Of a DNA stretch of 64,000 nucleotides, positions 60,543-63,500 are shown in pieces. Numbering within the stretch: the stretch's first letter is position 1; every line of letters starts with the position of its first letter. The stretch is taken from assembly GCF_056746865.1 (NCBI RefSeq), contig NZ_CM163382.1; one strand, written 5' to 3'. A program made the position numbers.

Positions 60543-63500
60543 TAAAAACTGGGGATAACGCCTTAAATGGCGAAGAAACGGTCTAAATAGGCTGATTCAA
60601 GGCATTTACGGGAGAAAAAATCGGCTCAAACATGAAGAAATGAAATGACTGAGTCAGCCGAGAAGAATTTCCCCGCTTATTCGCACCTTCCTTAGTAGAA
60701 AATACGTGTATAACACTTACTGAAATGCTTAGTAAAAACACTTAGTAAAATATGTGTAGAATTATCTATTTAAAAAGATATGTATATAACACTTAATAAA
60801 AACATGTGTATATAGTATCATACCGACATTCTCAACATCTTCAGACACTCATGCAGACTGAATGTTCGTTTCAGTTTTTCACGGCCAGCATGGGGATTTT
60901 TGTTCTGAAAACGGAGCAGATTTACTCTGGAATTATTTTTCTGTCCCCGTATTTCAGGCCCCAGAAAAGACAATCCGAAGCAAACCGTTTGTCAGCTTCC
61001 ATATCATCTTTTACCCCCGGAAAGTGATCGCGTTTTACAACCAGAATGACAGCCATACTGATTATGTCGTCTCCCGGCCCCCTTCACATATAACATGCAT
61101 GCCTGTCATTGCTTACTGCTCCACATGACAGGATTTCACATACAGGATGCGCATTCAGTGTTTTTATCGCCACTATAACAGACAGATTACTGTCGCTTTT
61201 ACTCTTCAGATTGTTAATCTGACCACAAGAACAGTCGAACAGTACAACGACACACCCAAGGAGGATATGAGCAGTAGTTGATAGCATGTTTTAATTTATT
61301 ATGAATAGATCAAGAATAGATCGTGAATAGTTAGAGAATAGTTCTTCAGCATCTCACAGAGTGATCAAGCCTTGAAGTGATTGCTTTTTGAACACAAGTC
61401 CGGATGCAATGTTTTTTTGTTAACTTCCTTGCATATTCGATTTCCATGTGATAGTGAAAATCACCAGAAGAGAATGCGATTGAGGCGTAATCAGATGAAA
61501 CAATATGAAGATGGTTATAACGTGAATGGATATAGCTGGGAAAATGAAACAATTGAGTATTTGTTGAATGATAAACAACTGACAGATAATCACATACCTG
61601 AATGGGTTAAAAAAAATGAAATTGCAGCATTCTGGTTCTGGTTAGTTATAATTAACACAGATCCCAAACTCCTTGGGGTTCGTAATGAATTAGGGTTCAA
61701 TACAGCCATGATGGGGCTGATTCCTGCGGGGAGTATACCCATAACAACAATTCCTTCAGATCATGAAATGAGACTGGATGTTATAAGCAAATGGATTAAT
61801 GCATTAATCCTTGACAATCAATCAGATTGCTTCATCTCAACAATGCATCAAAACTGGCTGCAGATCGAAAAGAGAAACGAAGCCAAATGGCTTAAAAAGA
61901 ATACAGAACAACTCGAATGGGCATGGAAATATATCAATGCACGCATCCCGCACACGTATCTTTCCTGGTTTTATCCTGTAAGTGATAACGAAAGATACAT
62001 TGCTATCGTAGTTTTACTAAAAATTTTATTCCCCGCAGATACACCATACTTACAGCAGCCAAAAGTACTTCACTATGGGGTTGCCGCAAAAGAAAAATTT
62101 TTCGACAAGATGCACAATGCATTCCGAAAACAGTTTACCGACGGAAAAAAAGATAAGCGGGTACAAATCAACGTTAAAATATCATCAGATGCAAAACGTA
62201 CTCTGGACAGACTGACCAGAGAACTGAAAACAACACAACAGGCTGTCCTGGAACATCTGATTCAGAACCACAGGCTGGTGATTCAGAACCACAGACTGTA
62301 TTAACTTTCACCACTTCTGCTCCTGCCGATTTTCTTCTTTTGGTAGTGTCTCCTGGCTGCGGATATCAGATACTTTTCCGTCATTTTGTTGCAGAACTCT
62401 TCAATGTAGTTAATCATTTTCTGGTGTGCTTTCAGCTTTTCTTCCCCGGGGGACGCTTTCAGATAAATGTCCTCCTTTTCCACAAGCGCATTGACAAACT
62501 CCCCTAAACATCCCTGGTTATAAAGCGACGTGAAAAACAACACATCCCCCAGTCTCTCCAGTAACTGTGGTTTATCCCCGAAATGTTTTTTTATACTTTC
62601 AAAAGGTTTTCTATTTTCCGGATCAAAAAAAACACTTAATCCCAGTCGCTTATATTCCTGGTAAAAAAGTTCAAACGTCGGGGATGCTGAACGGCAAATA
62701 AACGAAGACTGCGCCCATGGATTAAAATCTGTGACACGCCTCCCCTCCCGCACTTCCTGTCGTGTCAGCGGTGGTTCAGCAAACCAGGCGTCCAGCTCAG
62801 CCGAATCGTTATCCCTGCTCAAAACCTCATACAAACTGCCCGTGAACGGTTGAGCCGTTTGTTTTGTTGCTTCGCCTTCTGATTGTCTGAATCCATCCAC
62901 TTTTCTCCGGATATTACGCGGAATCAGCATAAAAGGCGGGACATTAAGTGATAAACGTTTACCCGTCATGCGATACCATTGACCTACCTCAACCTTAATC
63001 CGTGTATCTGACTTTAGCTCAAGTGCCATTATGTTAAGCAGGTACAGATAACGCACCGTATAACGATTAAAATGTTTCTCCGGATCAAACGATTCTGACC
63101 GTTCTCCTCTGTACACGAGTCTGCTGCGCTTCAGTATTCGCAGAGTATATTTCCAGGCCGGACTTTTACAAATGGCGGTAACTCTGGCCTTATTAACAAT
63201 GTCGCGTAATGCATCAATCTGTTGTGCAGTCATCTCTTCCCTCCACACTTTGTCACTCCAGATTTTTTCACGCCCATATTACCTGAATGATAAACCGGAT
63301 TAGTGTGATCCGGTTCAGTGAAATCAACAGGATACCGGTATGTCATTCAGCCATTCTTCCCTCTCCGCACAAGTGAAATCATATCTGACGTTTCTTCCTG
63401 AAGAAATTCGCCAGAAAATCCTTGAACATCTCCACGGTGTTATTCATTACGAGCCCGTGATTGGCATTATGGGTAAATCCGGCACCGGCAAAAGCAGTCT

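What the first reader, a model, noticed from the sequence alone, without database searches (positions are those of the whole stretch)
61303..63330. Two uncharacterised convergent genes in the cargo slot of a CP4-57-like integrative element
Between a YfjJ-like gene (57814..58545) and a YfjP-like GTPase (63330..) lie two ORFs I cannot assign to any family: 61495..62304 (+, 269 aa, RHH-like C-terminus) and 62301..63233 (-, 310 aa). Both have good RBSs and full-length frames, and their stops overlap by 4 bp. In the E. coli K-12 CP4-57 element, as I recall its gene order, the equivalent interval carries yfjK-yfjL-yfjM-rnlA-rnlB, where rnlAB is an anti-phage toxin-antitoxin, so this position is a plausible variable defence or addiction slot. 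Four phased GAATAG repeats upstream, a palindrome in the divergent promoter region, and an IS5 0.8 kb upstream complete the picture. Candidate for a previously undescribed two-gene system.
Basis: partly seen in the sequence, partly recalled or inferred. Interest (0 to 1): 0.75.

Follow-up and report, generated by a model that had tools for sequence, protein, structure and literature searches.

The report
Conserved orphan gene pair in island backbone
The two unassigned convergent genes are real and belong to two uncharacterised protein families, but they are a conserved backbone module of this island family across Enterobacterales rather than swappable defence cargo, and most likely form a fast-evolving DNA-binding regulatory cassette.

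Summary
Gene A (61495..62304, +, 269 aa) and gene B (62301..63233, -, 310 aa) are intact, have Shine-Dalgarno sites, share a TTAA stop overlap and are 'hypothetical protein' in RefSeq. The four GAATAG copies, the palindrome and the IS5 are also present.

Neither protein matches Pfam, NCBIfam, PHROGs, PADLOC or PDB. The exception is a weak but repeated ribbon-helix-helix (CopB/RepB-regulator type) signal at A's C-terminus.

The 'cargo slot' reading does not hold:
- B relatives at 21-29% identity in Citrobacter, Serratia, Hafnia and metagenomes are always (11/11 contexts) convergent with an A-family gene. They sit between a YfjJ/Gp2-like Rep gene and, in 9 of the 10 contexts long enough to show it, directly beside a YfjP-like GTPase.
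- In E. coli, A-type genes (616+203 places) match B (821 places) almost one to one.
- Islands lacking the pair carry a remote B homologue (376 or 407 aa) at the same spot. All 10 sampled islands had a B-superfamily gene there.

The cassette is still the most diverged part of a conserved backbone. It has older synonymous divergence and a higher dN/dS than its flanks.

Best guess: an island-specific regulatory switch in which A binds the phased repeats. This is inferred, not shown. Defence or addiction is not excluded, but nothing found here supports it.

The parts
61495..62304 (+). Gene A. 269 aa, orphan family. About 215 aa of Trp-rich helical N-terminal domain plus a basic C-terminal ribbon-helix-helix-like domain.
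   Evidence: Family alignment A5 has invariant W37, W47, W121, W132, W142, Y146 and E166. An HMM built from A5 recognises the partner genes in 5 independent distant loci at E 1e-33 to 1e-66. dN/dS is 0.50 against the ST131 allele. pI is 8.9 with 10 Trp.
62146..62268 (+). Part of A encoding residues about 218-258, the putative RHH (strand QINVKIS, helix DAKRTLDRLTRE, turn, helix QQAVLEHLIQ).
   Evidence: The signal is sub-threshold but repeated: RepC_IncLM 0.002; RepB-RCR_reg 0.079 and RHH_1 0.27; PRK13702 7.4e-5 for the L003 homologue; 3 of 8 family members hit RepB-RCR_reg at E<=0.1, best 1.1e-3. The AF2 model has helices at 231-244 and 248-257.
62258..62298 (+). 21-bp tandem duplication at the 3' end of A, giving ...IQNHRLV IQNHRLY. 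Specific to this allele.
   Evidence: Tandem repeat with period 21, 2.0 copies, 95% match. Other alleles end in ...RLD.
62301..63233 (-). Gene B. 310 aa, basic, predicted all-helical, orphan family. Conserved motifs are S-x-AW-x-x-TQ-x-x-LKRSG, P-x-x-IRRKVD-x-F-x-Q and GSLY.
   Evidence: A profile search of 1.84 billion representatives gave 48 hits, about 16 of them full-length distant relatives. Alignment A4 has invariant W27, P105, K111, L134, Y135, E193 and F234. No Pfam match even at E<=10. pI is 9.6, and 10.5 for the N-terminal 120 aa. dN/dS is 0.48-0.64.
62301..62304 (.). Shared TTAA in which the two convergent stop codons overlap. No terminator lies between the genes.
   Evidence: The same 4-bp overlap occurs in the three E. 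coli lineages and in L008. Other lineages range from a 26-bp overlap to a 121-bp gap.
61303..61341 (+). Four GAATAG copies at an exact 11-bp period, 154 bp upstream of A's ATG. Candidate operator for the RHH of A.
   Evidence: The ST131 allele keeps 4-5 AATAG copies at 11-12 or 21 bp spacing. Other lineages have different 11-bp-phased triplets (L012 TACTTTT x3, L020 CATGTTTT x3) or palindromes (L008, L019) upstream of their A gene.
63234..63339 (.). Intergenic region between B and the GTPase gene. The last ~80 bp (63265-63339) are nearly invariant among E. coli islands whatever the cassette type, and contain the palindrome AACCGGAT-N7-ATCCGGTT at 63293-63315.
   Evidence: The architecture (CYATATTACC, hairpin, TTTTCACAGGAG, ATG) is kept in Citrobacter, Serratia, Hafnia and Klebsiella loci, with compensatory changes in the hairpin.
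63340..64000 (+). 5' part of the YfjP-like GTPase gene, which runs off the window. First gene of the long rightward island operon.
   Evidence: (885-nt GTPase family protein in L001).
57814..58545 (-). YfjJ-like or inovirus Gp2-family (rolling-circle Rep-like) gene, forming the left border of the interval.
58546..60940 (.). Conserved non-coding region upstream of the YfjJ-like gene, about 1.2 kb without the IS. It is present at 74-91% identity in all island types and is interrupted in this window by IS5.
   Evidence: AT-rich direct repeats lie at 60699-60812.
59497..60690 (+). IS5 insertion (338-aa transposase ORF at 59529..60545). Specific to this strain's copy of the island.

Best explanation
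A and B are a two-gene backbone cassette of a family of Enterobacterales integrative islands. The island layout is AlpA, YfjI and YfjJ-like Rep on one side, and the operon YfjP-like GTPase, WYL/HTH, DUF932, antirestriction, RadC, CbeA-CbtA on the other.

The most likely role is an island-specific regulatory switch.

Shown:
- Both genes are intact and under purifying selection.
- They are co-inherited almost one to one and syntenic down to 21-29% identity.
- They are far more diverged than their flanks.
- A carries a C-terminal RHH-like segment.
- Phased short repeats lie upstream of A and change with the A lineage.

Inferred:
- A dimerises through the RHH and binds the 11-bp-phased GAATAG array to control its own promoter.
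- B is a basic helical protein transcribed divergently from the GTPase operon across a ~100-bp region. It acts on nucleic acid or on A, and helps set expression of the rightward operon.
- Because the genes converge with overlapping stops and no terminator between them, transcription of one runs antisense into the other. This couples their expression negatively, like a toggle.

B's biochemical activity is unknown.
For: Real, selected genes: dN/dS is 0.5 for A and 0.48-0.64 for B, and both have good ribosome-binding sites.

Pairing:
- 11 of 11 B contexts have a convergent A-family gene (HMM check).
- E. coli counts are A 616 plus A'' 203, giving 819 places, against B 821 places.

Backbone position: in 9 of the 10 contexts long enough to judge, and in all sampled E. 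coli islands, B lies divergent from and directly beside the GTPase gene, with the YfjJ-like Rep gene on the other side. The exceptions are L019, which has a different gene block there, and L011, where the GTPase is present but not adjacent.

DNA binding:
- The RHH signal recurs across the family, and A's C-terminus is basic, pI 10.4.
- B's N-terminal 120 aa have pI 10.5.

Candidate operator: GAATAG x4 at exact 11-bp phase. AATAG copies are retained in the 82%-identical allele, and other phased triplets or palindromes lie upstream of distant A genes. The region carrying the array (about 61150-61494) is specific to the cassette type.

Immunity-region-like pattern: the cassette has dS 0.35 and dN/dS about 0.5, against dS 0.08-0.13 and dN/dS 0.10-0.46 in the flanks. 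B alleles are mosaic. The flanks are conserved.

Convergent coupling: there is no terminator at the junction. Terminator-like hairpins are enriched (8 found against 2.1 expected), and several lie antisense inside the partner gene: + strand at 62842 inside B, - strand at 61955, 61893 and 61677 inside A.

Against: The RHH assignment for the window protein is below every curated threshold.

The repeat motif does not track the RHH strand cleanly. L020 has nearly the same strand (VQISVKIS) but a different repeat.

The pair is not obligatory for the island:
- E. coli islands with the 376/407-aa B form have no A.
- Klebsiella has a 362-aa A-family gene alone, co-directional with the GTPase gene.

The simple promoter scan found no good sigma-70 promoter for A or B.

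The GTPase leader is invariant while B diverges. If B acts there, its divergence needs a separate explanation.
Confidence: 0.4

Rival explanations
1. One reading: a previously undescribed anti-phage or addiction (toxin-antitoxin-like) two-gene system. B would be an effector or toxin, and A an RHH-containing neutraliser or transcriptional antitoxin.
For: - The genes sit on a mobile island that also carries a CbtA/CbeA toxin-antitoxin pair, and in relatives carries defence genes.
- RHH domains are common in type II antitoxins (established knowledge).
- The pair is tightly co-inherited, 819 against 821 places.
- The proteins evolve fast and are mosaic.
- In K-12 the same interval holds abpAB and rnlAB.
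- Both families are orphans, so absence from PADLOC is only weak evidence against.
Against: - No PADLOC, Pfam or PHROG hit to any toxin, nuclease, NTPase or sensor domain.
- The genes are convergent rather than a co-directional operon, and both products are large (269 and 310 aa).
- The RHH is at the C-terminus. In RHH antitoxins it is normally N-terminal (established knowledge).
- The module is syntenic backbone rather than a variable occupant.
- B-superfamily genes occur without A (376/407-aa forms, about 1,580 places), and A occurs without B in Klebsiella. This argues against an obligate toxin-neutraliser pair.
- Recognisable defence cargo in related islands lies elsewhere.
Confidence: 0.15
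2. A replication or transfer accessory module for the excised island. A would be a CopG/CopB/RepB-regulator-like RHH, or a relaxosome-accessory-like RHH, acting with the YfjJ/Gp2-like rolling-circle initiator at an origin in the large non-coding region. B would be a further accessory factor.
For: - The only profile similarities of A are to plasmid replication regulators: RepC_IncLM, RepB-RCR_reg and PRK13702/CopB.
- RefSeq names one allele 'replication regulatory RepB family protein'.
- A is divergent from a Gp2/Rep-like gene across a 1.75-kb (IS-free) non-coding region with AT-rich iteron-like repeats.
- RHH proteins are typical copy-control and relaxosome accessory factors (established knowledge).
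Against: - The YfjJ-like gene (91-94% aa identity) and the first ~1.2 kb of the non-coding region stay the same whether A is this allele, a 28%-identical allele, or absent. There is therefore no co-variation between A and the presumed Rep and origin.
- A is not adjacent to or co-transcribed with the Rep gene, unlike copG-repB or copB-repA.
- The pair is virtually absent from plasmids: 4 and 2 of 72,556 records.
- It is absent from phages.
Confidence: 0.12
3. The two genes have separate, unrelated roles, and the convergent neighbourhood is only inherited synteny. For example, B could be a structural or regulatory protein of the GTPase operon, and A an independent autoregulated DNA-binding protein.
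For: Each family also occurs alone at this position: the 376/407-aa B forms, and the Klebsiella 362-aa A form. The spacing between the genes varies from a 26-bp overlap to a 121-bp gap.
Against: - Short-form B has an A partner in 11 of 11 contexts, and the E. coli counts are near one to one.
- The lone forms are the ones with an extra ~100-residue N-terminal extension. In the long B forms this is a Cys-rich CxxxxC...CxxH segment. That fits a lost partner's role being taken over.
Confidence: 0.15

Closest known systems
RHH plasmid replication regulators: Pfam PF10723 RepB-RCR_reg, NCBIfam PRK13702 (CopB/RepA2 of IncFII), NF040976 RepC_IncLM, and CopG-type PF01402
   Same: The last ~45 residues of A and its relatives give the only profile similarities found. 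They fit the strand-helix-helix pattern. Phased short direct repeats lie upstream, as for several RHH operators (established knowledge).
   Different: - All scores fall below the curated cut-offs.
- A is 269 aa, with a ~215-aa novel Trp-rich domain in front of the RHH. The plasmid regulators are 45-90 aa.
- A is not next to a rep gene.
- It is chromosomal-island specific and almost absent from plasmids.
Immunity or master-regulator regions of phages and phage-inducible islands, such as SaPI stl/str and lambdoid cI/cro (from general knowledge; not tested here)
   Same: A hyper-diverged, mosaic regulatory cassette embedded in a conserved backbone. One gene is transcribed divergently from the element's main operon.
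   Different: - No HTH repressor fold was recognised.
- The two genes converge on each other rather than diverging.
- No helper phage or inducer is known.
- The intergenic region facing the main operon is invariant rather than co-varying.
Type II toxin-antitoxin modules with RHH antitoxins (ParD, CcdA, RelB and similar types)
   Same: An RHH-containing protein paired with a second protein on a mobile element, with tight co-inheritance.
   Different: - Convergent genes instead of an operon.
- The RHH is C-terminal.
- Both proteins are large.
- No toxin family match.
- Either partner can occur alone in related islands.
The yfjJ-to-yfjP interval of E. coli K-12 CP4-57 (abpB-abpA-yfjM-rnlA-rnlB)
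   Same: The same nominal interval between a YfjJ-family gene and a YfjP-family GTPase gene in a related island.
   Different: K-12 has no A or B gene in that interval. yfjJ has the opposite orientation relative to yfjP. The K-12 yfjP leader lacks the palindrome. The K-12 occupants are recognisable defence genes, whereas those here are backbone orphans.
The 376-aa and 407-aa 'hypothetical proteins' (WP_072644952.1, WP_001107219.1) found at the same position in other E. coli islands
   Same: Same position and orientation, divergent from the GTPase gene. They are remote homologues of B over residues ~100-280 (hhalign 96.8%, E=2.7e-10) and share the AWLNTQ..L.R, I.LP..IRR.V and GGLY-type motifs.
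   Different: They have an extra ~100-aa N-terminal Cys-rich segment and no A partner. They are more common than the A+B form: 1069 and 515 places against 821.

Membership tests
Ribbon-helix-helix superfamily (C-terminus of A) | Significant match to an RHH profile (Pfam RHH_1 or RepB-RCR_reg; NCBIfam PRK13702 or RepC_IncLM) | tested here: inconclusive
   Window protein: 0.002 (18 bits against a cut-off of 80), 0.079 and 0.27. Relatives: best 7.4e-5 and 1.1e-3. Three of 8 members reach E<=0.1. All are below the curated thresholds.
Ribbon-helix-helix superfamily (C-terminus of A) | Short N-terminal strand followed by two helices, about 45 residues | tested here: inconclusive
   The AF2 monomer shows helices at 231-244 and 248-257, preceded by a low-confidence segment at 219-226 where the strand would pair in a dimer. 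The model pLDDT is 65.
Ribbon-helix-helix superfamily (C-terminus of A) | Dimerisation and sequence-specific DNA binding through the paired strands | not testable with these tools
   Needs gel shift or footprinting on 61303-61341, or a structure.
Known anti-phage defence systems (PADLOC-DB 2.0) | Match of either protein to a model of a known or candidate defence protein | tested here: not met
   No families at E<=0.1 for A, B, the YfjJ-like protein or the YfjI-like protein.
Type II toxin-antitoxin module | Co-directional bicistronic operon of a small antitoxin and a small toxin | tested here: not met
   The genes are convergent with overlapping stops, and the products are 269 and 310 aa.
Type II toxin-antitoxin module | Recognisable toxin fold or family | tested here: not met
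   No Pfam, NCBIfam, PADLOC or PDB match for B. The fold search was uninformative because the model is poor.
Type II toxin-antitoxin module | Toxicity of one partner that is neutralised by the other | not testable with these tools
   Needs expression experiments.
Variable cargo or defence hotspot of an integrative island | Unrelated gene sets occupy the interval in otherwise homologous islands | tested here: not met
   All 10 sampled E. coli islands with a close GTPase allele carry a B-superfamily gene there. The A-B pair is also syntenic in Citrobacter, Serratia and Hafnia. The more distantly related K-12 CP4-57 does have different occupants.
CP4-57/CP4-44-type island backbone | YfjI (DUF3987), YfjJ/YagK, YfjP-type GTPase, DUF932, antirestriction, RadC, DUF987 and CbeA-CbtA genes in one element | tested here: met
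   RefSeq annotation of the identical island in strain H9Ecoli lists all of these. PHROG hits support the YfjI-like and YfjJ-like ORFs in the window. Gene order and orientation differ from K-12 CP4-57.
CopG-RepB or CopB-RepA type copy-control unit | RHH gene immediately upstream of, and co-regulated with, the initiator gene, and co-varying with it | tested here: not met
   The Rep-like gene is 2.9 kb away (1.75 kb without IS5) and divergent. It stays 91-94% identical when A is replaced by a 28%-identical allele or is absent.

The most novel reading that the evidence does not exclude
The A/B cassette, together with the 376/407-aa B forms and the Klebsiella long A form, may be the hypervariable specificity or 'immunity' determinant of a very widespread family of Enterobacterales islands.

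On this reading it is a new class of regulator pair built on two orphan folds. It would sense a helper element or a stress, and switch on the GTPase-to-CbtA operon and island excision or replication through a convergent-transcription toggle. The different cassette types would then define mutually independent island 'immunity groups'.
Probability: 0.15. Interest if true: 0.7.

Novelty: new variant of a known kind. Interest (0 to 1): 0.4.

Why it matters
Islands of this type are present in most E. coli genomes. GTPase-gene matches occur in 4307 of 5426 complete genomes, and a B-superfamily gene occurs at about 2,400 places. The strains include ST131 and other pathogenic lineages, and the islands carry resistance, adhesin and defence cargo.

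Nothing is known about how their conserved right-hand operon (GTPase, DUF932, antirestriction, RadC, CbtA) is controlled.

This work relocates the two orphan genes from 'possible cargo' to 'conserved, fastest-evolving backbone cassette next to that operon'. That gives concrete and cheap experiments: A binding to the repeat array, reporter fusions, and excision assays.

It also corrects a tempting but unsupported defence annotation. The novelty lies in two uncharacterised protein families and their arrangement, not in a demonstrated new mechanism.

Tried and rejected
Searches that gave nothing usable for A and B:
- Pfam, NCBIfam, PHROGs and PADLOC on single sequences and on every member of the family alignments. 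Only sub-threshold RHH-type hits for A appeared.
- PDB sequence profiles. No credible hit; the only match was a 0.25 E-value to ribonucleotide reductase.
- AF2 models. A reached pLDDT 65 and B reached pLDDT 52.
- Foldseek against AFDB50 for A. Only its own E. coli family, all uncharacterised.
- Rfam on 57.5-64 kb. Nothing credible.
- Literature searches by accession and by island gene names. No paper on these proteins.
- The genome-contig scan. With a narrower alignment it returned one Enterobacteriaceae MAG, so it gave no taxonomic breadth. Breadth came instead from cluster member names.
- Phage collection: no B homologue. Plasmids: only stray island fragments.

Ideas considered and rejected:
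- The 407-aa protein as an A-B fusion. Its C-terminal 'IQVNLKV' resemblance to A's RHH strand is not significant (E=0.49).
- The Klebsiella 362-aa A form containing a B segment. hhalign probability is 0.2%.
- The GTPase leader as a strongly stable RNA structure. The z-score is only -1.8.
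Full report
**1. The observation**

The window contains the two ORFs exactly as described: A at 61495..62304 (+, 269 aa) and B at 62301..63233 (-, 310 aa). RefSeq annotates the identical DNA in many E. coli chromosomes with the same coordinates, as 'hypothetical protein' WP_032153709.1 and WP_023155730.1.

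- The stop codons overlap in a shared TTAA.
- B has GGAGG 6 nt before its ATG, and A has GAGG 9 nt before its ATG.
- GAATAG occurs at 61303, 61314, 61325 and 61336, an exact 11-bp period. The hexamer is not enriched in the window as a whole, but about 1e-10 phased arrays of this kind are expected by chance.
- The palindrome AACCGGAT-N7-ATCCGGTT lies at 63293-63315.
- Comparison with an IS-free copy of the island places the IS5 at about 59497-60690.
- The left neighbour, 57814..58545 (-), is an 'inovirus Gp2 family'/YfjJ-like gene.
- The right neighbour is a YfjP-like GTPase gene whose ATG is at 63340, not 63330.
- The recalled K-12 order, yfjJ-yfjK(abpB)-yfjL(abpA)-yfjM-rnlA-rnlB-yfjP, is correct.

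**2. The proteins**

Neither protein matches PADLOC, and B matches nothing in Pfam, NCBIfam, PHROGs or PDB.

A gives only weak hits, all over residues ~204-260 and all to RHH replication regulators: RepC_IncLM 0.002, RepB-RCR_reg 0.079 and RHH_1 0.27. The signal recurs in relatives:
- PRK13702/CopB-type at 7.4e-5 in a 28%-identical E. coli homologue, which RefSeq names 'replication regulatory RepB family protein';
- RepB-RCR_reg at 1.1e-3 in another member;
- 3 of 8 members at E<=0.1.

The sequence fits a strand (QINVKIS), helix, turn, helix pattern, and the AF2 model places helices at 231-244 and 248-257. I accept a C-terminal RHH as probable but not proven.

B is basic, with pI 9.6 overall and 10.5 for the first 120 residues, and is predicted all-helical. 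Its model is too poor (pLDDT 52) for fold comparison. Conserved motifs are S-x-AW-x-x-TQ-x-x-LKRSG, P-x-x-IRRKVD-x-F-x-Q, GSLY, and a basic C-terminal helix.

**3. Distribution**

Both families are small and confined to Enterobacterales.
- Word-indexed searches found only Escherichia/Enterobacteriaceae sequences.
- A profile search of 1.84 billion representatives with B found 48 hits. About 16 are full-length relatives at 21-29% identity. Named members come from Citrobacter braakii, C. amalonaticus, Hafnia alvei, Serratia and Enterobacter, plus one MAG labelled Acinetobacter.
- An A profile additionally found a 362-aa protein of the Klebsiella pneumoniae complex.
- Among 5426 complete E. coli genomes, B occurs at 821 places in 742 genomes, A at 616 places, and the 28%-identical A'' type at 203 places. 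That gives 819 A-type genes for 821 B genes.
- The pair is essentially absent from plasmids and absent from phages.

**4. Cargo or backbone?**

In every context of a short-form B gene examined (11 of 11), B is followed by a convergent A-family gene. The contexts are three E. coli lineages including ST131, and loci from Citrobacter, Serratia, Hafnia and unassigned metagenomic contigs. Partners not used to build the A profile score E=1e-33 to 1e-66 against it.

In 9 of the 10 contexts long enough to judge, B is directly divergent from an MMR_HSR1 GTPase gene. That gene is followed by WYL/HTH, DUF932, antirestriction, RadC and CbeA/CbtA genes. On the other side lie AlpA and a YagK_YfjJ/REP_ORF2-G2P gene. 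The exceptions are L019, where a different gene block replaces the GTPase, and L011, where the GTPase is present but not adjacent.

I sampled ten E. coli islands whose GTPase allele is at least 93% identical to the window's:
- five have A+B;
- three have a single 407-aa gene;
- two have a single 376-aa gene.

All of these sit in B's position and orientation. The longer proteins are remote B homologues (hhalign 96.8%, E=2.7e-10). They share the AWLNTQ and IRR.V motifs and carry an extra Cys-rich N-terminal ~100 residues. They occupy 1069 and 515 places in E. coli.

The interval therefore always holds a member of one superfamily. The recognisable defence genes of these islands lie on the far side of the YfjJ-like gene: SMODS+SLATT, TIR, restriction endonucleases and a type I R-M system.

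**5. A kernel of truth in 'variable'**

The cassette, from about 60940/61150 to about 63260, is bounded by conserved sequence.
- To the left is ~1.2 kb of non-coding DNA upstream of the YfjJ-like gene, at 74-91% identity in all island types.
- To the right are ~80 bp before the GTPase ATG that are almost invariant.
- Inside, A alleles differ by 30-72% of residues and B alleles by 29-45%.
- Synonymous divergence is about three times that of the flanking genes: dS 0.35-0.38 for window versus ST131, against 0.08-0.13.
- dN/dS is higher, about 0.5 against 0.10-0.46, and B alleles are visibly mosaic.

Both genes are thus functional but fast-evolving, and exchanged as a block. This pattern is typical of specificity or immunity regions of mobile elements (general knowledge).

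**6. Mechanism (inference)**

The stretch carrying the GAATAG array belongs to the cassette and changes with the A lineage.
- The 82% allele keeps 4-5 AATAG copies at helical phase.
- Distant lineages have other 11-bp-phased triplets (TACTTTT x3, CATGTTTT x3) or palindromes upstream of their A gene.

This is what would be expected of an operator for a multimerising RHH protein that regulates its own promoter. The motif does not, however, track the RHH strand sequence perfectly.

The genes converge with no terminator at the junction. Terminator-like hairpins are enriched in the region (8 against 2.1 expected), and several lie antisense within the partner gene. Each transcript probably runs antisense into the other, which would couple their expression negatively.

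B's promoter shares a ~100-bp region with the GTPase operon promoter. I therefore propose a regulatory switch for the island's rightward operon, at moderate-to-low confidence (0.4).

A replication-control role is less likely. The Rep-like gene and its upstream region do not co-vary with A, and they persist unchanged when A is absent.

A toxin-antitoxin or defence role is not supported by architecture or homology. It is weakened further because either partner can occur alone, but only experiments can exclude it.

**7. Novelty and verdict**

These proteins are already in databases as hypothetical proteins, and no paper mentions them.

What is new:
- they form a deeply conserved convergent pair;
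- B belongs to a superfamily that marks the position upstream of the YfjP-type GTPase gene;
- the cassette is the hypervariable part of the backbone.

I rate this as a new variant of a known kind, namely an RHH-based regulatory cassette of a mobile element, and not as a new defence system. Interest is moderate at 0.4: two orphan families in a very common island, with clear experiments available but no demonstrated unusual mechanism.

Noticed in passing
window 63265-63345; also L003, L004, L008, L012, L017, L018, L020, L025 just upstream of the GTPase ATG: The GTPase leader has an architecture conserved across E. coli, Citrobacter, Serratia, Hafnia and Klebsiella islands. It consists of a -10-like CYATATTACC box, a hairpin whose stem sequence changes with compensatory substitutions (5 of 7 predicted pairs), and then TTTTCACAGGAG before the ATG. 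In several lineages a U-run follows the hairpin, which looks like an attenuator. In E. coli a 16-nt outer stem can sequester the start codon. There is no Rfam family for it. The single-sequence fold z-score is only -1.8.
   Followed up: partly
window 58546-59496 and 60691-60940: About 1.2 kb of apparently non-coding DNA upstream of the YfjJ/Gp2-like gene is conserved at 74-91% in all island types. In this window it is split by the IS5. It includes AT-rich direct repeats (AACACTTA.TAAAA x3, AAAATAYGTGTATA x3) at 60699-60812 that resemble iterons. It could be an origin or a long leader for the Rep-like gene.
   Followed up: partly
L003 936-2218; L004 1339-2043; L002 7570-8448 and L007 1256-2134; L025 1-6226: In related islands the recognisable defence genes lie on the far side of the YfjJ-like or AlpA genes, not between YfjJ and the GTPase gene. 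They are SMODS nucleotidyltransferase plus SLATT, a TIR-domain protein, a restriction endonuclease, and a type I R-M system. That position looks like the true variable cargo site.
   Followed up: no
window 61258-61281 (and L002 about 10996-11020): A perfect Shine-Dalgarno sequence (AAGGAGG) lies 2 nt before a 4-codon mini-ORF (ATG AGC AGT AGT TGA), just upstream of the GAATAG array. SD, ATG and TGA are kept in the 82%-identical ST131 allele, which reads M-I-R-S-stop.
   Followed up: no
window 62258-62298: An exact-frame 21-bp tandem duplication at the 3' end of gene A extends this allele's C-terminus to IQNHRLV-IQNHRLY. Other alleles end in ...RLD.
   Followed up: yes
L025/L026 8001-9089 (Klebsiella pneumoniae complex): A 362-aa A-family protein (hhalign 99.9%) sits alone, co-directional and directly upstream of the GTPase gene, with no B gene. 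It has an N-terminal extension of about 110 residues that does not resemble B.
   Followed up: partly
L019 1545-9341: In one metagenomic island the GTPase gene next to B is replaced by a five-gene co-directional block. It includes a 1011-aa P-loop_TraG protein and an 860-aa protein with no Pfam hit, and may be an inserted system.
   Followed up: no
window 61600-63000, both strands: Terminator-like hairpins are enriched in 60.6-63.5 kb (8 against 2.1 +/- 1.4 in shuffles). Several lie antisense inside the partner gene: + strand at 62842-62862 inside B, and - strand at 61955, 61893 and 61677 inside A.
   Followed up: no
window 55025-56911 and 57063-57720: A YfjI-family (DUF3987, PHROG DNA helicase 9e-42) ORF and a frameshifted IS110-family transposase remnant lie just left of the YfjJ-like gene. 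The first 52 kb of the window is a mosaic, IS-rich island carrying fdrA, YadA-like and autotransporter genes. No tRNA gene is present in the window.
   Followed up: no
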